Shown one piece after another: positions 41,520 through 63,130 of a DNA stretch of 64,000 nt. Source of the stretch: Mobula birostris (taxonomy: Eukaryota). The stretch's first letter is position 1. The number at the start of each line of letters is the position of its first letter. A program made the translations under genes and the position numbers. The notes beneath the pieces are model-generated. The model had not been told where the DNA came from, ran no database searches, and was given only the letters and a program-made list of their open reading frames with translations. The stretch lies in contig NC_092402.1 in assembly GCF_030028105.1 (NCBI RefSeq), positions 51,170,352 through 51,234,351 of the forward strand, in the 5' to 3' direction.

Positions 41520-44500
41520 ATCTTGATAGTTACTGGGGATGTCTTGGCCATCATGACAGAGGTGGTGTTGGATGTCTTAAAATGTAGATATGTCTTCAGT
41601 GCCTGATCAGGTGCGTTCAAGAGTACTATAGGAAGCTAGTGAAGAAATTGCAGGAGCTTTGGCTGAGAGATGTGCCTAATGGTAGGTGAAGTGCCACAGG
41701 ACTGGAGGTTGGCTAATGCTGTCTTTAAGAAGGACTGCAAAGAAAAACCTGGGAACTGTAGACTAGACCTAACATCTGTGGTATATAAGTTATTGGAGCA
41801 GATTCTGAGGGATAAGATGTACAACTCTTGGGGAAAGATGGGGTGGTTACAGATGGTCAATATCACTTTGTGCATTACAGATCGTGTCTCATGTATTTCA
41901 TTGAGTTTTTGAAGTAACCAAGAAGTTTGAGGGCAGGGCAGTAGATTTACATAGTGAGCTGCTCTGACAAGTTGGATTGCATGGGATCCAGGGAGAGCTG
42001 GCTAACTGGATACAAAAGTGGTTTAATAATAAGCAGAGGGTGATCTTGGAAGGTTGTTTTTCAGACTGGAGGCTAATGACTAGTGGTGTTCTCAGTGGTT
42101 AGTGCTGGGTCCATTGCTGTGTCACCTATGTCAATAATTTGAATGAGAATGTGCAATGTGTGGTTAATAAGTTTGTAGGAGACCTTGTAAAGATGATTAT
42201 TGTGAATTATAGAGAGAACTTGATTAGCTGGGCAAGTGGGCCAAGGAATGACAAATGGAGTTTGATTTGAGTTAGTAGATGTTTGGAGTCCATTATTAAG
42301 GATGAGGTTTTGGGGTACTTGAAGGCACATGATAAAATAGGTTGAAATCGGATGGTTTCCTTCAGAGAAAATCTTGACAAATCTGTTGGAATTCTTTGAG
42401 GAAATAACAAGCAAGGTGGACAAAGGAGTCTGGATTTTGCTTACTTGGATTTTCAGAAAGCCTTTGACAAGATGCCACACAAAGCTGCTTAACAAAATAA
42501 AAGCCCTTGGTATTACAGGAAAGATAGAAGATTGGCAGAGTGGAAATAAAGGGTGGGCTTTTCTGGTTGGGTGCTGGTGACTCAAAAATACATTCTATGA
42601 ACCCTGAGATTCATTTTCTTGCAGGCATGCACAGTTAAACAAATTTTAAAAAACTACACAGTGACAACCATTGTGCAAAAGAAGATGAGCTGCAAATATA
42701 AAAATAAATAAATGGTAACTAATATTGAAAATTTGAGTTGTACAGTCCCTGAAAGTGGGTCCATAGATTGTGGAATCAGTTCGGTGAGGTGAGTGAAGTT
42801 AGCCAGTGATTCAGTGCCTAGTTTGTGGCCAATACAACAATAGGGTGGGGAGGGGAGCAGGTAGTGTTGATAAAGCAGGGAGTCTGCAGAAGGAGACTGG
42901 GCAAAGAAGAGACGAAGAGGCAGATGGTATAGTGTAGGGAAGTGTATGGTCCTGCACTTAGAAGAAATAAAGGCATAGACTACTTTTTTAAATGGGGAGA
43001 AATTACAAAAATCAGATGTACAAAGGGACTTGGGAGTCCTTGAGCTGGATTCCTTAAAGATTAACTTGCGGGTTGTGTCAGTGATAAGGAAGGCTATTGC
43101 AATGCCAGCAATCATTTCAAATGGACTAGACTACAAAAGCAAAGATGTAATGCTGAGGCTGAAGGCATTTGTCAGCCTGCAATTAGGGTATGGCGAGTTG
43201 TTTTCAGTTCCTTATCTAAGAAAGGATGTGTTTTGGAGAGGGTCCAGAGGAGGTTCATGAAAATCAATTGAAGAACGAAGGAAGGGAGATCTTAAAAGCA
43301 ATTGAATATTGAAAGGCCTATATAGAGTAGATGTGGAGATGTTTCCGATAGTGGGGAAAGTCTAGGACCAGAGGGCATGGCCTCAGAATAGGTTGTTCCT
43401 TTAGAACAAATGGGGAGGTATTTCTTTAGCCAGAGAGTGATGACTTTGTGGAATTCATTGCCATGGACAGCTGTGCAGGTGAGTATATTTAAGGCAGAGT
43501 TGATCGTTCTTGATTAGTAAGGACAGCAAAGGTGAGAAAATGAGGTTAGAGGAAAAATAAATCTGCCACAGTGGAGCAGACTTAATGGGCCATATGTGAG
43601 AGAAGCATTTTTGGAAGCCAAATGAGGTTAGGACTTTCACAGTGCCATTATGCTTAAAAAATGCAACAATTGTATTGGTGTATAGGGAGAGGTTGGGCAA
43701 GCTAGGACTTTATTCCTTGCAGTATAGAAGACTGAGGGGTGACCTTAAGGAGGTGTATGAAATCATGAGGGGCAGTTCCCCCCCCCTCCAAGAGTAGGGG
43801 GATCTAACACTCAAAGCCACAGGTTTAAGATGAGAAGGAAAGATGGGAACAGGGGGCCAACTTTTTTTTTTCTTCCAGGCAGGTACATAAACAACATTTA
43901 TAAGGTATGTGGATAGGAAAGAATGGATATGAGCCAAAAATGGGTAGGCAATTTGGTGTGGATGGTTTGGGCTGAAGAGACTGTTTACACACAGCATAGA
44001 TCTTTAGGGCAGTTTGCAGCATGTTGCAACACGCCATCACTAAAGTTCTTGCCCCCTTCCAATCTTATAACAGTTCCCTTGTTAAAGACTACCACTGGTG
44101 AACCATCTCCACATCGGAGTCAAATCCCCACAGGATCCTTTCATTTTGAAACTTCAAGGATTCCTCCATTGAGGCTCCTGGGCAGTAGAACCATCTGCCC
44201 TGATGGGTCCTCTCTGGAGCCAGGGTGGCTGCTCCTTGTATTGGAATGGGGAGTCTCTAGAAGACAAAGAACAGAGAGTGCTTCCTGCTGTCCTGGGACA
44301 CCAAGGTGCAAATCCCATGATTTGTGGTATGGGGGAGGACCGAAGCTGTCTTCCAACCTCAAGTGGCGCTCTGGGCATCCCACTGGTGAGCATCAATAAG
44401 ACCATAAGATACTGGAGCAGAATTAGGCCATTTTGTCCATTGAGTCTGCTCCTTCATTTAATCATCCCTGCCAGACCCGATCTCCTGCCTTCTCTACCAT

Positions 44501-47330
44501 AACACTTCACATCCTGACTAATCAAGAGCCTATCAGCCTCTGGCTTAAATATACCCAATGACTTGGCCTCCTCAGCCAGCTCTGGCAATGAATTCCACAA
44601 ATTTATCACTCTCTGGCTAAAGAAATACCTCATCTCCATTCTAAATGGATGTCCCTCTATTGAGGCTGTGCCCTTTGGTCCTAGACTCCCCTTCCAAAGG
44701 AAACATCCTCTCCACATCCACTTTATCAAGCATTTCAACATTTGATAGGTTTCAATGAGATTCTTTCTATCCTCTTCGCCCCCCGCCGCCCAAAGTGCAT
44801 ACCTATACACTCCCTGAGACTAAATTCCATCTGCCACTTTGTCCATTCTCCTAATCTGTCCAAGTCCTCCTGCAGTCTCCCTGCTTCCTCAGCACTACCT
44901 GCCTGTCCACCTACTTCTCAATGAAACTGCTGACATCAGCCTATTTTATCACGTGCTTTCAAGTATGCCAAAACCACGTCCTTAACAATTGACTCCAACA
45001 TCTTTCCAACCATGAGGTCAAACTACCTGGCCTATGATTTCTTTTCTTCTGCCTCTCCCCCTTCTTGAAAAGTGGAGTGGCATTTGCAAATATCCAGTCC
45101 TCCAGAACCATGCCAGTCTATTGATTCTTGAAAGATCATTACTAATGCCTCCACAATCATTTCAACCACCTCTTTTCAGCACCCTGGGATGTAGAAAATC
45201 TGGTTTAGATAATTTACCTACCTTCAGAACTCTGTTTCCCAAGCATCTTCTTCCTAGTAATGGCAACTGCACTCTTCTGCCCCCTAACACTCTCAAATTT
45301 GTGGCATACTGCTAGATTTATGCACATACATAATCAGTTTGTCTGCCATTTACTTGTTTCTCCCTCCCCGCCCCCATTACCAGTTCTCCAGCATCACTTT
45401 CCAGTGATCCAATATCTAATCTCACCTCCCTTTCACTATTTTATATTTGAAGAAACTTTTGATATCCTCTAATATTATTGGAATACTTTTGTATTTCATC
45501 TTTTCCTCCATTATGACTTTTTTAGTTGCTTTCTGTTGGTTTTCAACAACTTCCCACTAATTTTTGTTTTATTATATGCTCTCTTGCTTTTATGTTGGCT
45601 TTGACTTTCCTTGTCAGCCATGGTTGCCATCCTGCTTCTAGAATACTACTACTCTGCGATGTACAATATCTATCCTGCACCTTGCAAATTACTTCCAGAA
45701 ATTCCAGCTATGCTGTCATTCCTATTGGTGTCTCCTGATCAATTTTGGTCAGCTCTCTTTCATGTCTCTAATTCAGTTTACTCCACTATAATACTGATAA
45801 TATATCTAATTTAGTTTCCTCCACTCCCAATTGCAGGGTGAATTCTATCATATCCTAATCACGGTCTCCTAAGGGTTCTTTTACCTTGGGCTCTCCTATC
45901 AATTCCAGCTAATCGTTCATTGCATGACACCCAATCCAGAATTGCCTTTTCCCTAGTGGAATCAACCACACGCTGCTCTAAAAATCCATCTCATAGGCAT
46001 TCTACAAAGTCTCTTGGGAACCAACACCAACCTAATTTTCCCAATCTACCTGCATATTGAAATCCCCCTGACTATCATAACATTGCCCTTTTTACATGCA
46101 ATTTTATCTCCTGTTGTAATTTAATCACAAATGAGAGAAAATGTGCAGATGCTGAAAATCCAAGCGCGCGCACACAAAATGCTGGTGTAACTCAGTGGGC
46201 AGGCAGCATCTGTGGGGGGTGGGGTACAGTTGACATTTTGGGCCAAGACCCCTCATCGAGATCTCGGCTCGAAACGTTGACTGTTTACTCTTTTCTATAG
46301 ATGCTGCCTGGCCTGCTGAGTTCCTCCAGCATTTTGTGTGTTACTGTTATAATTTGAGTCCCACATCTTTGGTACTGACTTTTTACCTTTGCAGTTTCTT
46401 AACTCTATCCACAAGGATTCTACATCTTCCAATCTGTGTCACCGCAAAGGATTTGATTTCATTTATTTTAAACGCAGCCACCTCACCCCCTCTGCTTGTT
46501 CTTTTGATATGTGTATTCTTGGATGTTAAACTCCCAGTTTATAATCCTCCCTCAGCCACAACTCAAGGATATTGGTCCCATTCTGGTTCAGGTGTAACCT
46601 GTCCCTCTTGTACAGGTCATAACTTCCCCAGAAGAGATCCCAATGATCCAAAAATCTGAACCCCTGCCCCCTGCACCAGTTCCTCAGCTATGCCTTTATC
46701 TGCCTAATGCTCCTTAACCTCACTGCTGTGTGGCACAGGCATCAATCTAGAGGTTACTAGCCTGGAGGCGTCCTGCTTTTCAGCTTTCTCCTGAGCTCCC
46801 AAAAATCCTTCTTCATAACCTCGTCTTTCCTACCCGTGCCATTGGTGTCAATATGTACCATGACAGCTGGTTACTGTCCCTTTTTAGAATGCTGATTAGA
46901 ATATGATCAGAGGCATCCCTGGCACCTGGGAGGTAATATGTCACCTGAGTATCTCTATAGTGGCCACAGAATATCATCTATATTCTTCTAATTATGGAAT
47001 CTCTTAACATTGCTTCACCCCTCTTCTCTTCAGAGCCTCAGTGCCAGCGACCTGGTCTCTACTGCTCCCCTGGTAGGTAGTTCCTCCTCAGTATTCAAAA
47101 CGGTATACTTATTAAGAAGAACAGCCACAGGGCTGCTCTGTACTAGCTGCCTATGCCCTCCTCTCAACAGTCACCTGCGTCTTGCAATCTAGGGGTGACC
47201 TCCTCTCTGTAACTTCTATCTGTTCCTCATTTTCCCATATGAACCGAAGGTCGCCGAGCTGTAGCTCGGAGCACTTGATGCGATGTTATCCCACACCTAA
47301 CACAAAGAACATAACAGTCATCCTCGCTGT
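41520..47330. mobile_element. Cluster of degenerate CR1 LINE fragments (both strands) with SINE and PLE pieces
   Basis: PQDWRLAN..KPGNCR, TNLLEFFEEIT..DKG, and CR1 3' UTRs; inverted PLE terminal-repeat pair at about 46130-46345. Confidence 0.7.
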
Positions 47331-51500: not shown

Positions 51501-54500
51501 AGGAGAATCATAAGGGATATGTTAAGAGCAAAAGATTTGCAAGAGACAAAATTATTCCTCTGGAAGATCAGAATGGTAATCAAAAGAAATGGGGGAGATC
51601 TTAAATTGATTTTTTGCATCTGTATTTACTCGGGAGATGTGTGTAAAATCTATAGAAGTGAGACAAGGCAGCAGCGAGGCTATGGACCCTGTACAGATTA
51701 CACAGGAAGAGGAGTTTACTGTCTTGAGGTAAATCAGTGTGGTCAAATCCCAGGGCCTGACAAGGTGTTCCCTCGGATCCTGTGGGAACCTGGGGTGGTG
51801 GAGGAGACAGAAACAGGGACTTTTAAGAGATGTTTGTTCATTTCCATAGATGCTGTCTGACCTGAGTCCCTGCAGTATTTTGTGTGTCTTTTTACCTTTG
51901 CAGTTTCTTAACTCTACTCCCAAAGATTCTACCTCTTTCAATCCTTTTTCCCTTTTTAAGAATTTGATTTCATTTTGTACTAACAGACTCACTCCACTGC
52001 ACCCTCCACTTACCTGCCTGTCCTTTCAATACAATGTGTATTCTTGGATGTTAAGTTCCCAACTATGATCTTTCAGCAACATCTCAGGGAGGCCACAATG
52101 TCATACCTACCAATCTAACTGTGCTACAAGATCATCTACCTTATTTCGTATACAGCGTACGTTCAAATATAACACCTTCACTCCTGTATTCATTAACCTT
52201 TTCAATTTTGCCCCCATGTTGCAGAAGTTAAATTTATACCCCTTTCTAAACCTTTTGTCTTCTGGACACTTTTGTAATCCCTCCTGTACTCTTTTTCCCT
52301 TAACTTTTCCAGACTGTTGAACACCACCTCTCATTATTTAGTTTAAAGCTCTTTCCATGTTCTAATTTCTCCCAGATTCTACCCCTCATCCACAGATGGG
52401 GGACAGTTCACAGCAGGAGGAATGCGGAGCATCTGGGGGGGAACGCATGCAGTCATGGCAAGGGTATGCAGACACACAAGTGTTAGGGTCGAGGGCAAGG
52501 GGAGATGGTGGGGATAGGTGCTTCCCTCCCTTCCTGAGCAGCTGTAGGAATGGAGTGCTGGGTTAATGGTTCTGCGGCTGAGACTGGGAGATTGGTGAGT
52601 TTGAAGATCGAAAGCTGGGGTGGGTGAATAACTGTGTGTTCTCTCGCTGTCAGGCACCCCTGATCCAGGCCATCTTCAACCGAGATCGGGAGGAAGTGAA
52701 GTCGCTGATAAACAGGAGTGAGGACGTCAATGGATTGGTATGCGGAGCTGCACACACTCAGGGTGTTGATGGGGAGAAGAACGGGGATGCGTAGTGAGGA
52801 CATCAGTGGGATGTGGGGACCTGCACACTCTGGGTGGTGATGGTGTGAGGGAGCAGGTGGGGAATATGTAGTGAGGACATCAGTGGAACCATGGAGCGGG
52901 ATAGGGAGTGTGTAGCAAGGACTGGAGTGTGTGTCAACTATATGCAGCACTCACTCCCCATTATGACGGGTGACTGATGCCTGGCTTTGTTCACAGGACC
53001 AAGAGAAGCGGACACCACTTCATGCAGCAGCCTACCTGGGTGATGTTCAGATCATCGACATGCTCATCCAGTCAGGTAAGGCTCTGTCATTCTGGAACCC
53101 CTTCACTGACACTTCTCTACTCCCACCGTACAAGCCCCCTGACCCACCTCCTGTGTGTGCATGCGTGTGTGAGACCTTCCTCTGTGTCTCTCATCCTCCC
53201 CATCCCTGTCATCGTATATCACCTTTGACCCTGACCCTCCTCTCTGCATACTTCACTCCCCCCAGCTTCATGCATATATCACTGATTCTTGAAACTGCGG
53301 TGAGAACATGTCCCACTAAGAAAAGTGCTAATTCCGTTGCAAATGAATAACATTTTCTTAGTTAAAATAATCAGGGTTGATCATCTGAGGGTCAAATGCA
53401 ACATTTTTTCATATGTTTGTTTTTAATTTTATAAATTAAATGATTATATGATAGCCCAGTACCCACAAAATCAGTTGTCCTCAGACAAGAGATTATCATT
53501 TCAATTTGATAAAAAAGTGTGAAAAAATCATTTAAAATGTATAATATATATGCCAGATGAAAGAATAGAGTGAAAAACCTCTTTAAAATTAAAAGTAGTG
53601 AATTTTCAACAGTATTTATCTTATTTTGTGGTTGCTCAAAATGTGTCCCAAGTTTTTGTCAACACTGTCAGACATTTATATAAAAAAAGTAATAAAATCA
53701 GGCAACCACATGGTCAACTATATTCCTGAGGACCCCCTTCCCACCCTCCACATCTGCTAAATGCAACAAGGTCAAACAAGCTCCTGTAAGTTTGCTATTT
53801 TTTTCAATAATTTTTATATATTTATTGATGTTGCTACTGTCATGATCATGACGTGTCAACACTGTCTCTTTTGTATAGAAAGAATTATTTTAAATTATGT
53901 CATAAATTTATGCATTTTAAGTAGAAGCCAGAGGCAGTTAGCAACAGAGGGAAAACAAGATGGCTTCTGTATACAACTCATGCATGTCATGTTTAAAAAA
54001 AACCGTCAGGTTTTCTGTCTAACAGTGGTGACAAAAACATCCAAATCATCCTCAGTGGAGGCTTGAATATAATTTATGATCACAATAAATAGTAATATGG
54101 CTTGTAATGTTTCTTTAACCTCTTTATTTATAATATACAGAATTTCCTCTTTGTTTCTTCCACACACAGGCCCACAATATTTCCTTACTAAATGTATCCT
54201 CAATGACTAAAACCATAAATGAATTTAGTTGCACCATTTCATAATCATTTTATAAAATTTCACTAAATTAAACATAATTAAATTCATACTAATTTTGCAC
54301 AATTTCATAGTAATTCCATTAAATTCTTACCTTCCTTTTATGTATTTTAGGAAGTTATGGCTAGGCAGCAGCTATCAGTGGAGGAGCAAAGGAGAAGAAG
54401 CAGGGAATACCAAAAAAAGTGGAGAGAGAAAATATATAGTGAGCCCGAGTTAAAGGAGGAATACCTGAGAAAGGAAAAGCAAAGATGGAAGAAGAGAGTA

Positions 54501-57500
54501 GAGGATTGGAAGATAAAAACTATCAGTGCATTGAATGAAAGGGAAAAGAGGAGTAAGAGAAAGGCGTGGAAACGTAGACAGCAAGAGTCAAGAGAGCGTA
54601 AGAGAAAGGGCCCAGATCGCCCAGAAACTCCCCCAGATAGTCCATTGAATCAGACTATACAGGAGCCAGCTCGCAGTAGGCAGTCTATAGCAGGTGAAAG
54701 GGAAAGAAAGAAAACAAGAGCAAGATACTTGAGAGAGATGAAAGCTTTGAAAAATAAACTTCGAGATAATAAAAGATGGGAACAAACTGAAAAAGCGTTG
54801 GCGACGAGAGCAAACTAGAAATAAAAAAACACAAGAATCACCAAGAAAAAAAAACAGAGCAGATGCTACAGGGAAGCAAACTCAAAAACCCCTCCATCAA
54901 GAAAACCCTGCTCTTCCACAACTGTCTCATTCAAGAATTTAATCAAAACAAAAATAATTTACAGTCTGCTCAAACATCAAAGAACTTGACTCTGTCAGGC
55001 AGGGTTCTAAAGAAATATCGCCTGATACACCAGACAAAGCAGTTCGGGCTGACATACAACACACTGCGAAAGAGAAGTACTACAGACAAAAAACCCTCTT
55101 ACATTCAAACAATAACCCCGATGGTTCAGGATTTCTACCATAATGCTGCACAAATGATGGCGGACAAACAGGACACAATAACATGGAAGAAAATAAAGCA
55201 TCAGAGAATGATTCTGACTGACACAATATTCAATCTTCACGGGGAATTCATCAAAAAGGAACCAGCTGTAGAACTCAGTTATTCGTCCTTCTGTGCTTTA
55301 CGTCCATTCTATGTCACAGCACCAAAACCATCAGATTGAAAGACATGCCAGTACCATGAAAATGCAAAGCTGATGTTTGATGTCCTAACAGCATATGGTA
55401 TTGACAAGTCTAGCAGATTGGAGGGTAGTTTTGAACTTGTGTGTTGTTCTCAGACAAGCGAGGCATGTCTCTGTGCTCCTGCACCCGATGTCTCCACAAG
55501 CACACACTTCCCACCCCACAGCAAGAGTTGACCGATGTTGAGTGGCAGCGATGGGAACGAGTTCAGGACCAAACAGCAGATGGAATTCACTGCAATACAA
55601 GATATGTGAAGCGCAATGGCACACTGGCAGAGCTCATCAAACTGTATGAAGACAAACTAAAGGGTGAAACAACAACACGTGTGTGCTTGGTTCAGAACCA
55701 GTCCAGGGAATACAGGAGCTTGATACAGAACTGCAATGAAAGCACTGTAATTGACGTGGACTTTTCTGAGGCTTGGAAATATAGTTCTGAGGTACAGTCA
55801 TGCCATCTTGGTCAGAACCTCCCACAGCTCAATCTGCGCAGTGGCATGTACACACAAAAGTAGAGAAAGCAGGATTTTGTATAATATCAGAATCCAAACG
55901 ACAGGATGCTTCTGCCATTTGGACTCACTTGGAACAAGTCCTCAGAGATATTTGTTTAAAATTTCCAAAAGTTGATACCATTCAATTTTGGTCAGATGGC
56001 CCCAGCAGCAGTACAAAAACAAGAACTTCTCTCTCCTCTGCAATGTCCCTCCAACCCTGGGTTTCCAGAGAACAACCTGGAACAACTTTGCAGCTTCACA
56101 TGGGAAGGGAGCTCCAAGTGGCATTGGGGGAACTGTGAAAAGGACTGCAGAAGGCCTTGTACTACGGGGGAATGGCGTTGAGCATGGCAAGATCTTCCAT
56201 GAGATGGTTGGGAGAAGCCTTTGCAGTACTCAGCTCTATTGTATTGTTGAAGGTGACATGCAGACATATGATGCAGTCCTTTCTCAACCACTATAACCTG
56301 TACCAACAACAGGGAAAATCCATCAGGTTATATCTTACGGAAACAGCATCCATTGCAGATAATTGTCATGTTTCTGTAGTGAACCACAGATGTGCCAGTG
56401 TTTCAGCCCAACAGCATTTCAGTTGTCTGAAAATACACATGCCAGGCTACAGGCTGAGGAGAATGATGGCCCTACCACAATGGGAAAGAACAGAGGGCCT
56501 TTGGCAATGCTGATGGAGGAAATGGAGTAGGAACCCCAGAGTGGTCCTGATGGGACTACGACAGATATATCTGCTGGTGTCATTAATGATGGAGGTTGTC
56601 TTGCAGTCCTTTATGACCAAAACTGGTGGTTAGCAAAGGGCTGTCCCTGTGGATGCTCATAATCAAGATGTTCAAGTGGAGTTCTTGCATCCTCATGGGC
56701 CCAACACGCGTTTCCATCCAAAACCAGGTGGAAAGGATATGTGCTTCGTACCAGTCGAAAATATTCTGGTCAAACTGATGGAGCCATCATTACCAGGTCA
56801 TGCAAGCAGGATGAGGGAGATCTACCACCTGTCTGCAGAAGTCATGGACTTCATAGAGGAGGAGCATATTAATCATCTACTTCCTGATAAAGCTGACTGA
56901 ACGTTTTCGAAGATTTTCAAACCCAGAAATGGATGGAGGAGGTTGCACCGAAATATTGCTTGATTGCTGAGACTTTGTTCTATAAACATATATGTTTAGA
57001 TTTCTTAACACTTAAAATTTTTTCTTTTCAAAATTAAAACCTGTTTTATCCAAATTCTCAAGAATCAGTGATATGTCTCCCACCAGTCTGTTCGCCCCAT
57101 CCCTGGACTCCCTCTGCATCTGCTTCCCCCAGGCACTCCCCCCTCCCTCCTCAATGCATTTCTGAGACACTGGGCACACAGTCTGTCTCAAGCCCTCTGC
57201 TGCCTGGTTGAACTGTTCTTTCCTGGTGAGTCAGACCCAGCCCCTCTCTGTCCCACAGGAGCTAAAGTCAATGCGAAGGACAGCGCCTGGCTGACCCCAC
57301 TGCATCGCGCAGCAGCTTCTCGTAACGAGGTAAGGAACCCTGTTCTACTTTCTGAGCCAGCGTTGGGTCAGTGGGGCGCACTGTGTGAGAGGGGGTCGGG
57401 GAGGGAGACATGAAAAAGGGTGCAGGGGGAGAGGGAGGAAAGATGGGGAGAGAGAACTGTGGGAGGGGTGGCAAGGAGACGAGGGGGTAGCAGTGAAGGG

Positions 57501-59883
57501 GGATGGAAGAAAGAGGAAGTGCAGAGGGAGGAGGGAGCACCACAAAGGTGAGGGAAGAGGGAGAGCTGTGGGAAGGGGAATAGGGAGTGCCACGGAAGTG
57601 AAGTACCAAGCAGTGCAGCAGTTTCAAGGGAAGGAGTGATGTTTGATGGGTGGTGACCGTACCCTCCTCTCCCCACCCCCCACAGCGAGCTGTGAGCGTG
57701 CTGCTGAAGCACTCGGCTGATGCCAATGCCCGAGATAAGTTCTGGCAGACTCCTCTACATGTGGCGGCTGCTAACAAGGCTACCAAGTGCGCTGAACTTC
57801 TTCTGCCGCTGCTCACCAATGTCAATGTGGCCGACCGTACAGGGCGGACAGCACTTCACCACGCTGCCTACAGCAGTCATCTGGAGGTACCTGGCGAGCC
57901 CGGGGGAGGGGGTGGGGGAGATGCATTTGGGATGTGGCATGAGAGAGGGGTCCTGTGAAGTGGGGTTGGTGTTTCTCTGCACTTGCTGTCCTTGCCCTTC
58001 TGGGCAGGAAGAGATGTGTGGTTTGGGAGATGCTGTCGCAATAGCTTGGGTGAGTGAGTACAGTGGGTTTTGCAGACTGCATTTACTGTGTGCAGTTGGT
58101 GGGGTGGGATTGCCGATTGAGCGGGATACTTTTTTCCCAGGTGGTGTCAAGCTTCCTATAGACGGTGGAGAGGTAAGGTTGTATGCATGGACTAACTCCA
58201 CTCCAGTTCCCTCTCCATCCCTGTCACTTCTCCAGAGAATTTTTTCACCTGGAGCGGGATGAACTTATGGAATTTTCTCTGAGATGGGGGATGTTCTGTG
58301 GCAAATCTACTGCCCAGTGAATGTTTTATTTCATTAATTAGCGAGTGAAATGTGGGAGCTGTATTCTCTGACTTGCTCATCCTCATTCTGACTGTCTATT
58401 CCCTGAGGTAGGCAGTGATGTGGGAGAGCTGTTTTTGTTCCTCACCCCCCCCCCCTCACTCTACCTGTTCCCTGGGGTAGGGAGTGGTGTTACCTGTGTT
58501 CCATCCCCCTTACACTGCCTGTCTGTTGCAGATGGTACAGCTGCTGTTGAACAAGGGGGCTTGTGTCAGTGCCTGTGACAAGAAGGAACGTCAACCCATT
58601 CACTGGGCTGCCTTCATCGGTGAGTGTGGGGAGTTTCAGACCTGGTCTGGTGCTTCACCCCTGTCTGTCCCAGAGGTAGAAAACATCTGTGGGGTGGAGT
58701 GTGACCATGTACTTCACGTTTCTCCTCCTCTCCCACCCCACTTTTCCAGGATCCATGACTGGGGGGAGAGGAGAATGAGGTGTTTCTTGATCATTGTTCC
58801 AGCCTGAGATGGATGGGGACTTTGGGGAATTGGCTGACATGTTGATTATGGCATGGGGTTGAGGTGTGGGTGGCTTATCTTAGGGGTCTGAGGCTGTGGG
58901 GGTGAGGTGCGGTGGTTTGCTGTAAGTGGGGGGAGTGGTGGGTCTGGAGGATTCACTGCCCATTCCTGATCTCTGCCCTCTGTTCCAGGGCACCTGGACG
59001 TGATGAAGCTGCTGCTGTCCCGTGGGGCAGTGCCAAGCTGTAAGGATGTGAAGGGATACACCCCGCTGCACGCGGCTGCCTCCAGCGGAAAGTTCGAAGT
59101 GGTGAGGTACCTGCTGAAGCTGGGTTTGGAGGTAAGTCATGTCATTCCTCACCCTCACCCTCACTCCTCGTCCCTCACCTTCCCCTCTCAACACCCCACC
59201 CCTCCCACCTCCTCTCCATCCTCTCTTCATCCCTTATCTCCTGATTCAGCACTCCTCCATCACCCCTGTCCTCCATGCAGCCCTTTCCACCCTCTTCCTC
59301 ACCCCTACCATCACTCCACACTGGCCTCACCCTCCCTTCCCCCCCACACACACACATTTGCTTCCCCCCCCCCACACACACATTTGTACCCTCTCGTCCT
59401 GGGCTGAATGTCTGTGTTGATGTCCCCAGATCGACGAGCCCAATGCCTATGGGAACACAGCCCTCCACATTGCCTGCTACACTGGACAGGACGCTGTGGC
59501 CAATGAGCTGGTCAACTACGGGGCCAACGTCAACCAGCCCAACCTCCTGGGCTTCACACCGCTGCACCTTGCTGCTGTCTCCACCAACGGAGCTCTGTGC
59601 CTGGAGCTGTTAGTCAACAATGGGGCCGATGTCAATGTTCAGGTGGGTCTGCAGCCCTCTCCCACCGCGCAGGGTCTCCAACCCATCGGCTCCCCCCACC
59701 GATCTTGGGGTGTGTGGTGGCTGGCCTAGGGGATGGCAGGTGGCTGTGCTGATACCGCAGGGCAAGGTCACCCCCCCTCTCTCAGTCATCTCCTTTTCTT
59801 CCAGAGCAAGGATGGGAAGAGCCCTTTGCACATGGCTGCGATCCACGGCAGATTCACTCGATCTCAAATCCTCATCCAGAATG
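48228..59883 (+). CDS. ANKRD52: ANKRD52 (PP6 regulatory ankyrin repeat subunit C), coding exons 1-9; continues beyond the window
   Basis: Exons 48228-48254, 52654-52737, 52997-53075, 57259-57329, 57686-57886, 58532-58619, 58989-59131, 59430-59642 and 59805-59883. Residues [34 protein letters not shown] and [18 protein letters not shown] favour ANKRD52 over ANKRD28/44. The gene neighbours CS as in human. Confidence 0.93.
50590..52350. mobile_element. CR1 LINE fragments in ANKRD52 intron 1
   Basis: [17 protein letters not shown] (EN start), [19 protein letters not shown] remnants. Confidence 0.7.
52654..52737 (+). CDS. ANKRD52: ANKRD52 exon 2
   Basis: [28 protein letters not shown]. Confidence 0.92.
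52997..53075 (+). CDS. ANKRD52: ANKRD52 exon 3
   Basis: [26 protein letters not shown]. Confidence 0.93.
53276..57074 (+). mobile_element. Sola2-like DNA transposon (about 3.8 kb) with a decayed transposase at 54357-56900
   Basis: TIR ATATCACTGATTCTTGA at 53276-53292 and inverted at 57058-57074. Motifs [24 protein letters not shown] and [24 protein letters not shown] are spread over several frames because of frameshifts and stops. Confidence 0.85.
57259..57329 (+). CDS. ANKRD52: ANKRD52 exon 4
   Basis: [23 protein letters not shown]. Confidence 0.93.
57686..57886 (+). CDS. ANKRD52: ANKRD52 exon 5
   Basis: [37 protein letters not shown]...[10 protein letters not shown]. Confidence 0.94.
58532..58619 (+). 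CDS. ANKRD52: ANKRD52 exon 6
   Basis: [29 protein letters not shown]. Confidence 0.93.
58989..59131 (+). CDS. ANKRD52: ANKRD52 exon 7
   Basis: [47 protein letters not shown]. Confidence 0.93.
59430..59642 (+). CDS. ANKRD52: ANKRD52 exon 8
   Basis: [38 protein letters not shown]...NNGADVNVQ. Confidence 0.94.
59805..59883 (+). CDS. ANKRD52: ANKRD52 exon 9
   Basis: [26 protein letters not shown]. Confidence 0.94.
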
Positions 59884-59892
59884 GTAGGTCTA

Positions 59893-60116
59893 TGTTGTGT
59901 ATGTGGCCTGGCTACACAACAGTGCTATTAATAAAAACGCTGGAGACGGGAGCTAAGTTTCGTGGTTTTTTATTGGCAGAATCCGAACTTTAACACACAC
60001 GTACAGATCAATACGCGCCTAATAACGCATGCTCAATATGCGCCTAATAGCGCATTCAAAGACGTTTTACTAAAACATAAAGTAGTCCCTTATTATACTG
60101 TAGGCTATACGGTACA
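59893..60116 (-). repeat. 3' LTR
   Basis: Direct repeat of 62910-63130, with about 13 differences by eye, many at CpG. Confidence 0.95.
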
Positions 60117-60436
60117 CTCCTCCCCTTTTATTTTAATAGTGTATCAACTTTTTTTTTACTGGGTCACTATGCTAAACAAATATGTTTACCCATACAAACA
60201 TCGACCATTTGTTTACTTAGTAATTTAATAATATTAAATTATAACAAGCTTTTTTTTTACTTTTGGTCTAAGACCCATTTATAACTCAAGTCTCTGGGGG
60301 TCTTCTCTGCCTCTCCAGGTAACATCTGTCAATAAACTTGTTTGTTTTAATACAGATTTCCATATAAAAGTCATGAAAAGTTGACCTCTGAACATAGGGA
60401 GTTAAGAAGATGTACGCCTCCAACTTGCTAAGAGTT

Positions 60437-61367
60437 CTAGGCAGCAGATCGCCTCCGTATAATGAAGACTCCTCTGTGCAGCTGTCCTAGATATATACAC
60501 ACCTTTGTGCTATCACTTGTCTTCCTTGCCCATATCTCATATGTTCCAACTGAGCTAATTACACAGCCAATCTCCGTATTCTCCTTAGATTCCAAATAGA
60601 TAGCCTGACCTTTATGATACCATCTCTTATCGTAATGTAACTTTCCATCTTCTATTTGTGCTTCATATCTTTGTGCTGGTGATTCAGCAGGAGTGCTGGG
60701 AAGATGCTCAGGAGAAGACGGAGATGCTGGTCTTTTTGGAGATTTAAGCTTATTGAGAGTTTGCAGATCTTCCATTATCTGTTCATCTGTTAACAAGCAA
60801 TTTAACTCCACAGGTGCTGGTTTTCGTCTTTTGTCTGTAATTGGAACAGGGTCATTTGGTCTCCTTAGTTTCCTAGTCGTTATTGGCTTTACCTCCATAG
60901 AATCTCCTGTGAGTTCCATTGTTAGCCTCTCATTCTCAATCATCTTTTTTTCTTCTAACTCAATCTTTTTATCTTCAAATTCCTTCACTGCTGCTTTCTT
61001 CTCTTTAATATAATTCCTTTCAACTCATTCTGTCTCCAGTTGCAGAAGAAGCTCTGCATTTTGTATTCTTTCCTTGTATTGTTGATCTAGTTTCTTCATC
61101 CTTTTCATGATACTCCTGCAAAGTGCCTTCCTGTAACTGCTGTAGCTGTCTTTTGAGAGATGTCAATTTCTCCTGGTACATCTGCTCTTTTACTTCCAGG
61201 TAGTCTTCATCATCCTGCTTATTGGCAATATCTGTCTCCCTTGCATCCTCTGTATCTTCATCCGATTTGCGGCCACGGATACTGCGGTCGTCCTCATCGT
61301 CGACGCTGTCTGGCTCCTCCTCGTCATTCTAATAGTCAACAATGGGTGAGAGGAGAGCTGCAGACAT
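60437..61367 (-). pseudogene. SUDS3: Processed SUDS3 (SDS3) retrocopy inside the LTR element
   Basis: Intronless: [79 protein letters not shown]. Lesions: TAG at 61331-29, a +1 frameshift near 61108, TGA at 61027-25, and an apparent in-frame deletion near 60955. Confidence 0.95.
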
Positions 61368-61389
61368 CTTCCCCGCCTTGCTGCCCTCC

Positions 61390-62527
61390 TTTGCTGACAC
61401 ATCTAGTGCCTTGATGGTGTGCCAATCCAACTGGATTTTCCTGAGCCATTCACGTCCCAGCAACGGTGGTCCTCCATTTTTCAGTACAGAGAGGTTCAGC
61501 TGCTGTGTTTTGTCTCCGTAGGTCACTGTCACTTTAATTTTACCTTTGGGATGCACTTTCTTTCCTGTGCAAGTCTTTAGCAGTAGTTTAGTTCGTTTCA
61601 GAGGTATGTGAGAAAACAGTCATTTGTAGTCGTGTACAGAGATCACTGTTAAAGCTGAGCCTGTGTCCAACTCCATTTTCAGTCTCACACCTGCCACTTG
61701 TGGAGTGATCCATATTACTCTTTGATTATCTGTCTCTTTCATACTGTGAAGTTGCAGACAAGACAGTTCACTTTTGTCTGAACTGCTTTCTTCCATTTTG
61801 TGTACATTGTTGTGTTTTCCTTACTGGGGTTTCTTACTTCTCTGTATTTTGTCCTTTTTCTGCTGTTTACTAGCTTTGCATACTCTGCCCGTGTTTGCCA
61901 TAGTTTCTGCATTCTTTGACAGGCATCAGGGTCATGTGACATGCTCCCACAATGGTAACATTTCTTTCTTTCATTTCTGTTCAGTGACATTTTAGTCGTA
62001 GCATGTTCCAGAGATTTTTGTTGAATCTCTGAAGCAGCCTGTGCTGCTATTTCCGTTGATATTGTAATGTTCAGTGCCTTCTCTCATGTGAGGTCTTTTT
62101 CACCCAGGAGCTTCTTCTGTGTGGTTTCACAGTGCATGCCACACACTCAATGCATCTGATAGACCAGCTCCAAATTGACAATGTTCTGATAATTTGCGCA
62201 ATTCAGCACAATATTCAGAAATGCTTTCATTTTTGCTTTGATTCCGTTTGTGAAATTTAAATCTTTCAGCAGTGACCAGTGGTTTGGGATTTAAATGCTG
62301 TTGGAGAGTGTCACTATTTGCTTGAACGTTTTGTCAGCTGGCTTTTCAGGCGTTAACAAGCTCCGTAGCAGCCCGTATGTTTTTGCTCCCGTAATACTGA
62401 GTAAGATGTTGGCTTTCTTTTCATCATAAACACCGTTAGCCTCACAATATAACTCCACTCTCTCAATGTAAGTTGCCCAGTCTTCAATGCCACTATCAAA
62501 TGCTGTAATGGTTCCAATCATCGCCAT
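61390..62527 (-). pseudogene. Decayed gag-protease region of the Gypsy element
   Basis: EDWATYIERVELYCEAN..GAKTYGLLRSLLTPEKP..AERFKFHKRNQ..ESISEYCAELRKLSEHCQFG; aspartic protease LDTGS. Confidence 0.9.
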
Positions 62528-62681
62528 CCTTGTTATGTTAATTAAGCCCTGTTTTCCCTTTGTTTTCTTTTTGACTCGTGTGTTCTTTTTGCTAGTGCCA
62601 TGAGCGCACTCCGTCTAGATGTGTGTGTGTCTGTCTTTTTTATCTCCCTTCTGGGGCAGGCAGACCCTCAGCCCCTGGGGG

Positions 62682-62843
62682 TCAACGCTGGCTGTGGTCT
62701 CGGCGGGATGTGCTGCGGCTCCGACTGTGTCTCTTTGTCTCCCGATGTTCCCGACCCCGGCTGTGCTCCCGCTTCCTTTCGGACTCGCGGCCTTGCTCTG
62801 CCTCCTTCTCCTGCTCCTTGGCTTGTTCCATGCGCTCTTCCTC
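62682..62843 (-). pseudogene. ACIN1: Captured fragment of the ACIN1 (Acinus) C-terminus in the LTR element leader
   Basis: [53 protein letters not shown] compared with the recalled ACIN1 end ..[41 protein letters not shown]. Confidence 0.75.
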
Positions 62844-62909
62844 CGAGTGTCGTTATCAGTTAAAACAAGGTGTTCCGATACGATGTAGGTTCATTAGCCT
62901 CGTCGCCAA

Positions 62910-63130
62910 TTTGTTTATGTGGCCTGGCTACACAACAATGCTATTAATAAAAACGCTGGAGACGGGAGCTAAGTTTCATGGTTCTTTACTGGCAGAATCC
63001 GAACTTTAACGCACACATACAGATCAATACGCGCCTAATAACGCATGCTCAATATGCGCCTAATAGTGCATTCAACGACATGTTACTAAAACAAAGTAGT
63101 CCCTTATTATACTGTAGGCTATATGGTACA
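62910..63130 (-). repeat. 5' LTR
   Basis: Followed on the minus strand by the PBS; flanked by the TSD GTCTA. Confidence 0.95.

What the first reader, a model, noticed from the sequence alone, without database searches (positions are those of the whole stretch)
62620..62850. ACIN1 RS-rich C-terminus in the element leader, forming a 49-codon uORF
Seen: a GC-rich island between the PBS and gag, missed by the ORF track on this strand. It encodes [49 protein letters not shown] (62831-62682) and is followed by probable 3' UTR. It matches the recalled Acinus ending (KE.[19 protein letters not shown], terminal stop). The Q/H residues at expected R positions are CAA/CAG/CAT/CAC codons, as CpG decay of Arg codons would give. 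Inference: a second capture. The purine-rich, SR-protein-binding RNA or the RS peptide could have aided export or packaging.
Basis: partly seen in the sequence, partly recalled or inferred. Interest (0 to 1): 0.78.

Follow-up and report, generated by a model that had tools for sequence, protein, structure and literature searches.

The report
Host ACIN1 fragment in retrotransposon leader
A jumping-gene family in a ray copied about 190 bases from the end of the host's ACIN1 messenger RNA into its own untranslated leader and spread it to hundreds of places while keeping its copying enzymes, but the short reading frame seen in this one copy is a chance mutation, not a gene.

Summary
The capture is real; the uORF is not a family feature. 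Window 62844-62652 (minus strand) matches the last coding exon and 30 nt of 3' UTR of the host's ACIN1 gene (166/192 nt, E 1e-60 against 40 kb). It sits in the leader of a Ty3/gypsy LTR family. Fifty sibling elements keep the empty site, and the 5' junction lies in a purine-rich microhomology, as template switching predicts. The ATG at 62831 is private: host and 29 of 30 copies lack it, as do 100 of 100 listed pattern matches. The frame is otherwise closed by two stops, and sub-lineages share frameshifts in it. Unlike the fly cases in Tan et al. 2016, no ORF was replaced: 13 of 49 insert-bearing elements keep pol. It probably preceded the SUDS3 capture. Best reading: a tolerated non-coding passenger; a helpful RNA signal is not excluded. 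Unexplained: the piece differs from today's host only at silent and UTR sites. The scan noted the SUDS3 cargo before on other genomes; no note named ACIN1.

The parts
62652..62844 (-). Captured piece of host ACIN1 mRNA: end of the last coding exon (RS-rich tail), stop codon, 30 nt of 3' UTR; includes the 5' microhomology
   Evidence: blastn to host locus L032, 166/192 nt, E 1e-60; boundaries from empty-site siblings
62835..62844 (-). 5' junction: purine-rich stretch shared by the empty leader and the host exon (9 of 10 letters alike between this copy and the host)
62682..62831 (-). 49-codon open frame of this copy; its ATG is a private change from AAG
62652..62681 (-). ACIN1 3' UTR remnant, 30 nt; the 3' junction shares only one base with the element
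62853..62894 (-). Family-wide 12-codon upstream frame closed by two stops; in frame with the ACIN1 piece; older than the capture
   Evidence: 12 codons in 36 of 39 elements of the empty-site type and 40 of 49 insert-bearing elements
62898..62908 (-). Primer-binding site complementary to the 3' end of tRNA-Ser(GCT)
62912..63130 (-). 5' LTR (TG...CA)
62528..62651 (-). Element's own leader downstream of the insert
   Evidence: present in empty-site siblings
61385..62527 (-). Decayed gag-protease region (stops and frameshifts in this copy)
   Evidence: sibling L011 frame is 53-57% identical to the best K02A2.6-type gypsy polyproteins; aspartyl protease Pfam hits below cut-off
60437..61367 (-). Spliced SUDS3 coding sequence in place of RT-RNase H-integrase (the other cargo; broken in this copy)
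   Evidence: Sds3 Pfam E 1.8e-5, 25.3 bits against a cut-off of 25.4; one host exon found with its intron ends
60117..60130 (-). Polypurine tract
59893..60116 (-). 3' LTR, 91-94% identical to the 5' LTR
59888..59892 (-). 5-bp target-site duplication, right copy (left copy 63135-63131)

Best explanation
During reverse transcription inside a particle of a Ty3/gypsy LTR retrotransposon, the enzyme left the element RNA in the leader, copied about 190 nt of a co-packaged host ACIN1 mRNA (end of the last exon plus 30 nt of 3' UTR) and returned to the element at a purine-rich microhomology, losing only a few bases. The piece held no AUG and touched neither the PBS nor gag-pol, so the element stayed autonomous and the piece hitch-hiked through the family's burst. 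A pol-less derivative that swapped pol for SUDS3 cDNA, probably later, carried it to most copies. It is not translated as a family feature; sub-lineages trimmed it by slippage at its repeats, and each copy then decayed at CpG sites. In the window copy one A>T change made an ATG by accident. Shown: host origin, empty site, boundaries, presence in pol-bearing and pol-less copies, private ATG. Inferred: template switching, order of the two captures, neutrality.
For: Host match; host locus is ACIN1 (RSB motif, one match in the genome; 91% to a named stingray ACIN1 whose tail equals the host frame). Empty sites in 50 elements, 47 with pol. ATG private. Host piece has 0 ATG in 201 nt. A frameshifting 1-nt insertion shared by 6 copies and a 10-nt deletion by 4. 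Diversity by codon position among copies: gag 0.096/0.089/0.140, ACIN1 frame 0.195/0.175/0.149; shared transversions at third positions 20 of 37 in gag (p 0.007), 4 of 10 in the ACIN1 frame (p 0.44). CpG decay is symmetric, 132 CA to 113 TG, p 0.25. Insert-free and insert-bearing classes have the same LTR-LTR divergence, medians 0.089-0.097. No folding excess in the leader (z -0.08). Mechanism described in animals by Tan et al. 2016.
Against: Fixed differences from today's host are all silent or UTR: 5 clear plus 2 less certain synonymous of about 40 sites, 0 of about 128 non-synonymous sites, 5 of 30 UTR bases (5/40 against 0/128 p 0.0006). Only two of them could be placed, both on the host branch. 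This is more than the roughly 4.5% per-copy decay. The neutrality test has low power (41 codons; ACIN1 against gag directly p 0.49). Leader types stand 248 to 53 in favour of the insert-bearing type, and 33 of 34 SUDS3 elements examined outside L216 carry it. The 3' junction has only one shared base. The order of captures is not proven: L193 has SUDS3 without the insert, the least-changed insert (L216) is in a SUDS3 element, and the gag tree is unresolved.
Confidence: 0.72

Rival explanations
1. Captured by the same route, then kept because the RNA helps the element in cis (nuclear export through SR-protein binding, packaging or dimer formation), above all the pol-less SUDS3 form that must compete for helper proteins.
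For: Insert-type leaders outnumber empty-type 248 to 53. SUDS3 is found in 33 of 49 insert-bearing but 1 of 50 empty-site elements, although leader variants shared between pol-bearing and SUDS3 copies show recombination. SUDS3 copies retain more of it (median 187 against 150 aligned bases). The 3' part is lost less often than the 5' part. A purine loop in a retroviral leader is reported to matter for packaging (PMC8096270, title and start of abstract only).
Against: Common descent from one founder explains the linkage, and copies are not independent. Among pol-bearing elements in the unbiased sample it is 13 with to 11 without (L134 moved by eye). L193 shows a SUDS3 element integrated without it. 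The purine-rich 5' part is the part deleted repeatedly, and the empty site was already 88% purine against 71% for the insert. No folding signal.
Confidence: 0.12
2. The family reached this lineage horizontally from another ray, already carrying that species' ACIN1 piece, and picked up SUDS3 here; the piece is a passenger that records the donor.
For: ACIN1 piece differs from the host at about 16% of near-neutral sites with no amino-acid change, whereas the one SUDS3 exon compared shows 0 fixed substitutions in 133 nt, 23 synonymous sites (7/40 against 0/23 p 0.034, 5/40 p 0.09). The gag tree is star-like, so little element evolution separates empty and filled leaders.
Against: An older capture or a faster GC-rich host locus gives the same pattern: two host-branch changes fell in this stretch since the split from species only about 1.5% apart. 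The SUDS3 exon is AT-rich (GC 0.34) with few synonymous sites. No distant outgroup DNA was obtained.
Confidence: 0.1
3. The RS-rich peptide was made by the element (read-through or re-initiation after the 12-codon upstream frame, or a non-AUG start) and was under selection, at least early.
For: All fixed coding differences from the host are synonymous; the upstream ATG is in the same frame; the ACIN1 stop is kept in 86 of 89 copies.
Against: Two tandem stops separate the ATG from the piece; shared frameshifts; no third-position excess among copies; only 34 of 89 copies have 49 or more open codons, and the 10 of 89 with an in-frame ATG have it at several unrelated positions. Constraint on the host gene explains the silent-only pattern.
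Confidence: 0.05
4. Chance likeness of low-complexity, purine-rich DNA, or an ordinary leader of the family.
For: The sequence is low-complexity and Pfam finds nothing in the peptide.
Against: 86% identity over 192 nt running through the stop codon into non-repetitive UTR; empty-site siblings lack exactly this stretch.
Confidence: 0.01

Closest known systems
LTR-mediated retrocopies of animals (Tan et al. 2016, Genome Res 26:1663, PMC5131818; 12 passages and section 5 read)
   Same: Partial mRNA piece inside an LTR element, microsimilarity at a junction, no poly(A) tail, more than one host gene in one element, further rounds of transposition.
   Different: In all their fly cases part of the element's ORFs was replaced and none looked like a continuous element interrupted by an insert. 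Here the ACIN1 piece is a near-clean insertion in the leader, pol is kept in 13 of 49 carriers, empty-site siblings survive, and copies number in the hundreds.
Maize Bs1 (as summarised in PMC5131818; otherwise recalled)
   Same: One LTR element with pieces of several unlinked host genes, multiplied afterwards.
   Different: Bs1 is a plant element; its pieces are recalled to form a chimeric ORF. The ACIN1 piece is not translated as a family feature.
K02A2.6-like Ty3/gypsy elements of fish
   Same: gag-protease 53-57% identical to the best hits; single gag-pol in the order protease, RT, RNase H, integrase; tRNA-Ser PBS; 5-bp target duplication.
   Different: This family carries host cargo in the leader and, in most copies, in place of pol. 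Assignment to the Mag clade is recalled, not tested.
Transducing retroviruses (recalled)
   Same: Host mRNA picked up by template switching; defective form spread by a helper.
   Different: No envelope gene seen in the elements examined; no evidence that the cargo is expressed or selected.

Membership tests
LTR-mediated retrocopy (Tan et al. 2016) | Host mRNA piece flanked on both sides by one LTR element with both LTRs | tested here: met
LTR-mediated retrocopy (Tan et al. 2016) | Microsimilarity at the switch points | tested here: inconclusive
   5' junction 9 of 10 letters in a low-complexity purine run; 3' junction one base; no chance test run
LTR-mediated retrocopy (Tan et al. 2016) | No L1 hallmarks (poly(A), own target duplication) | tested here: met
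   piece ends 30 nt into a UTR of about 430 nt, no A tail
LTR-mediated retrocopy (Tan et al. 2016) | Intron loss proving an RNA template | tested here: inconclusive
   the piece lies within one exon, so no splice junction is crossed; the SUDS3 cargo does cross them
LTR-mediated retrocopy (Tan et al. 2016) | Part of the element's ORFs replaced | tested here: not met
   insertion in the leader, pol kept; the paper reports this as its observation in flies, and it is the point of difference
LTR-mediated retrocopy (Tan et al. 2016) | Secondary transposition of the chimera | tested here: met
   132 exact junction matches; 92 distinct leaders held
Ty3/gypsy LTR retrotransposon | TG...CA LTRs, PBS, polypurine tract, 4-6 bp target duplication | tested here: met
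Ty3/gypsy LTR retrotransposon | pol order protease, RT, RNase H, integrase | tested here: met
   siblings cut at 2.9 kb hold RT and RNase H but mostly no integrase; longer ones hold all. The window copy has lost them.
Mag clade | RT tree placement | not tested
   recalled likeness only; one search gave no usable definition in the listing
Functional upstream ORF | Start codon kept across copies | tested here: not met
   1 of 30; 0 of 100 listed
Functional upstream ORF | Coding constraint among copies | tested here: not met
   low power
Functional upstream ORF | Ribosome occupancy or peptide | not testable with these tools
   no such data
ACIN1 (source gene) | RSB motif and orthology to named ACIN1 | tested here: met
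   PF16294 over cut-off, one match; PDB 4a8x_B E 7.5e-13; named ray ACIN1 proteins

The most novel reading that the evidence does not exclude
The retrotransposon put a captured host exon to use as an RNA signal in its leader (export or packaging), which let the insert-bearing form, and above all its SUDS3-carrying dependant, outgrow the original family about five to one: exaptation of host sequence by a transposon, with the ancestral empty state preserved beside it for a direct test.
Probability: 0.12. Interest if true: 0.72.

Novelty: new variant of a known kind. Interest (0 to 1): 0.42.

Why it matters
It is a clean vertebrate case of mRNA capture by an LTR retrotransposon in which before (empty leader), after (insert, pol kept) and a second step (pol replaced by SUDS3) all survive in one genome in tens to hundreds of copies. 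It shows that capture need not cripple the element. It also bears on retrocopy surveys: a 2026 preprint lists SUDS3 among the top retrocopy parents in cartilaginous fishes and reads such profiles as selective filtering (10.64898/2026.06.26.734816, 8 passages read); here SUDS3 copies are cargo of one LTR family. The claimed 49-codon uORF does not matter: it is one copy's mutation.

Tried and rejected
G-to-A editing or selection for purines: the window copy shows only CG>CA changes, but across 49 copies CA and TG are balanced (132 to 113, p 0.25); rejected. A first empty-site pattern found 0 matches because it was written from the filled leader, and a first PBS pattern matched only the window; both were too narrow. 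Searching with a fish gypsy protease-RT piece gave other families in its top 30 loci (63-75% DNA identity, no ACIN1 match in 30 of 30); the true partners came from the PBS pattern. A gag-protease tree of 58 of 67 rows (9 dropped for under 700 aligned bases) was star-like and could not order the captures. Folding of the window leader and of the host piece was no better than shuffles (z -0.08 and 1.12). Pfam found nothing in the 49-aa peptide. Laying four runs on the host exon (4 of 24 listed) placed only 2 differences; run X20 held unrelated low-complexity contigs; leader-like contigs in X8 and X16 at depth 2-6 against 117-198 for ACIN1 mRNA show presence in two other species, not transcription. 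Literature searches for this capture found nothing relevant in their listings.

Full report
Observation. It lies in a 3.24 kb LTR element: LTRs 63130-62912 and 60116-59893, 91-94% alike, TG...CA ends, a 5-bp target duplication, a polypurine tract and a PBS at 62908 that matches the 3' end of tRNA-Ser(GCT) genes of this genome. After the leader come a decayed gag-protease region from 62527 and, in place of RT, RNase H and integrase, spliced SUDS3 sequence. A sibling's gag-protease frame is 53-57% identical to the best K02A2.6-type gypsy polyproteins.

Source. The RSB motif family rang once in the genome, on contig C4338. That locus is ACIN1: it matches the solved fly Acinus peptide and a named stingray ACIN1 at 91% over the aligned part, whose tail equals the host frame read; its cluster holds only ray proteins. 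The leader matches the last exon of this gene through the stop codon and 30 nt of UTR, 166 of 192 nt, E 1e-60 against 40 kb. The host is thus a ray of the stingray and devil-ray group (inference).

The uORF is private. The host has AAG at the place of the ATG. So do 28 of the 29 other copies first fetched; one has AAA. A pattern open at that base matched 132 places; all 100 listed read AAG, 32 were not shown. The family's upstream ATG is in the same frame but is closed by two stops after 12 codons, and this short frame is also in elements without the insert (36 of 39; 40 of 49 with it). Of 92 distinct insert-bearing leaders, 89 could be aligned at the ACIN1 stop; 10 have some in-frame ATG, at several unrelated positions, five of them giving 9 residues.

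The empty site. I took 60 of 247 elements picked by an LTR-end plus PBS pattern that does not see the insert (the first on contigs C1, C3, C4). The script classed 48 as insert-bearing; I moved one more, L134, by eye. Of these 49, 32 carry SUDS3 without pol, 13 carry pol, 1 has SUDS3 and part of RT, 3 have neither. The 11 without the insert all carry pol. A base pattern just after the PBS separates two leader types, 248 and 53 exact matches (lower bounds). Of 40 further elements of the rarer type, 39 lack the insert: 36 with pol, 2 with neither (one of them disrupted right after the PBS), 1 with SUDS3 (L193); the fortieth, L216, has the insert and SUDS3 (20 of the 40 were read over only 2.9 kb). 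The empty leader reads straight through a purine run (88% purine over 30 nt, 33 elements). The insert begins inside this run, where host and element are alike over about ten letters, and ends with a single shared base; only a few element bases were lost. L216 keeps both units of a 12-nt repeat that the host has and most copies have cut to one.

Mechanism. This anatomy fits two template switches during minus-strand synthesis, as Tan et al. 2016 describe for animals (PMC5131818; 12 passages and section 5 read, supplements not read). The steps are inferred; the piece lies within one exon, so an RNA template is not proven by intron loss, and I ran no chance test of the microhomology. Why it was tolerated: the host piece has no ATG in 201 nt and spares PBS and gag-pol. 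Insert-free, insert-bearing and SUDS3 classes have the same LTR-LTR divergence (medians 0.090, 0.089, 0.097; 8, 10 and 26 elements), so they were active together. Leader variants shared by pol-bearing and SUDS3 copies show recombination between the forms.

Selection. Among copies, gag shows the third-position excess of a coding sequence (0.096, 0.089, 0.140; 45 copies), the ACIN1 frame does not (0.195, 0.175, 0.149; 49 copies), nor does the SUDS3 part tested (0.087, 0.093, 0.087; 30 copies). Power is low: the direct ACIN1-gag contrast is not significant (p 0.49). Six copies share a 1-nt insertion and four a 10-nt deletion in the frame. Pol-bearing copies keep less of the piece than SUDS3 copies (median 150 against 187 bases; copies are not independent). 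The leader folds no better than shuffles.

Against my reading. The differences fixed between family and today's host are 5 clear and 2 less certain synonymous changes of about 40 sites, none of about 128 replacement sites, and 5 of 30 UTR bases. That exceeds the roughly 4.5% per-copy decay (12 of 73, p 1e-4, interval 9-27%; three sites too many were counted). Close relatives placed two of them, both on the host branch. One host SUDS3 exon shows no fixed substitution in 133 nt, only a 24-nt deletion in 28 of 28 copies spanning it. The simplest reading is that ACIN1 was captured earlier and that the host gene has since changed at silent sites; a faster GC-rich locus, a donor from another species, or early coding constraint remain open. 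ACIN1-first is favoured (about 3 in 4, my estimate) by this contrast and by 13 pol-bearing carriers against one SUDS3 element without the insert, but L193, L216 and the unresolved tree leave the order unproven. The five-to-one excess of the insert-type leader could reflect an advantage, but descent of the SUDS3 burst from one founder explains it as well.

Comparison and novelty. It works like an LTR-mediated retrocopy and meets most features of that class; it differs in being an insertion into the leader that left the element autonomous, where all fly cases in Tan et al. replaced ORF sequence. Eight searches of the held library (listings only, apart from the two papers read in part) showed no report of this capture; subscription papers and repeat libraries were not searched. 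A 2026 preprint names SUDS3 among top retrocopy parents in cartilaginous fishes and does not mention ACIN1 in its main text (its supplements could not be seen and may list ACIN1 copies). Two earlier notes of this scan describe the SUDS3 cargo in other genomes; none contains the word ACIN1. Verdict: real capture, new variant of a known process, uORF an accident; interest 0.42.

Noticed in passing
window 61367-60437 (-); host exon L236: SUDS3 cargo: junction in frame with the protease end in the window copy; all 28 copies spanning the place share a 24-nt in-frame deletion against the host exon; no third-position excess among copies.
   Followed up: partly
window 61385-61370 (-): Just before SUDS3 the window copy has the letters of pol-bearing siblings where most SUDS3 copies differ, which suggests a crossover with a helper right at the junction.
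   Followed up: no
window 62894-62853 (-): A 12-codon frame right after the PBS is kept in most elements of both leader types; a possible regulator of gag translation.
   Followed up: partly
L135, L144, L162, L164, between SUDS3 stop and polypurine tract: About 200-250 extra bases shared by these copies; longer SUDS3 UTR or another captured piece.
   Followed up: no
L193: Only element seen with an empty leader and a full SUDS3 cargo.
   Followed up: partly
L105, L113, L115, L138, L170, L188 leaders: One empty-site subtype has about 32 extra bases before gag that insert-bearing leaders lack.
   Followed up: no
window 52967-59729 (+): Exons of an ankyrin-repeat gene (Pfam; recalled likeness to ANKRD28/44/52); the element lies antisense just after them, probably in an intron.
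   Followed up: partly
G000:C17: 73 of 84 matches to the tRNA-Ser(GCT) 3'-end pattern are spread along this one contig.
   Followed up: no
L105, L115, L127, L191: The same small element, looking like a non-autonomous DNA transposon, has inserted into several family copies.
   Followed up: no
window 42283-44998: Two nested pairs of inverted repeats of 63-65 nt, 86% complementary.
   Followed up: no
runs X8 and X16 on L032:9337-9540: Contigs of the insert-bearing leader occur in two other species, so the family is older than their split from this host.
   Followed up: partly
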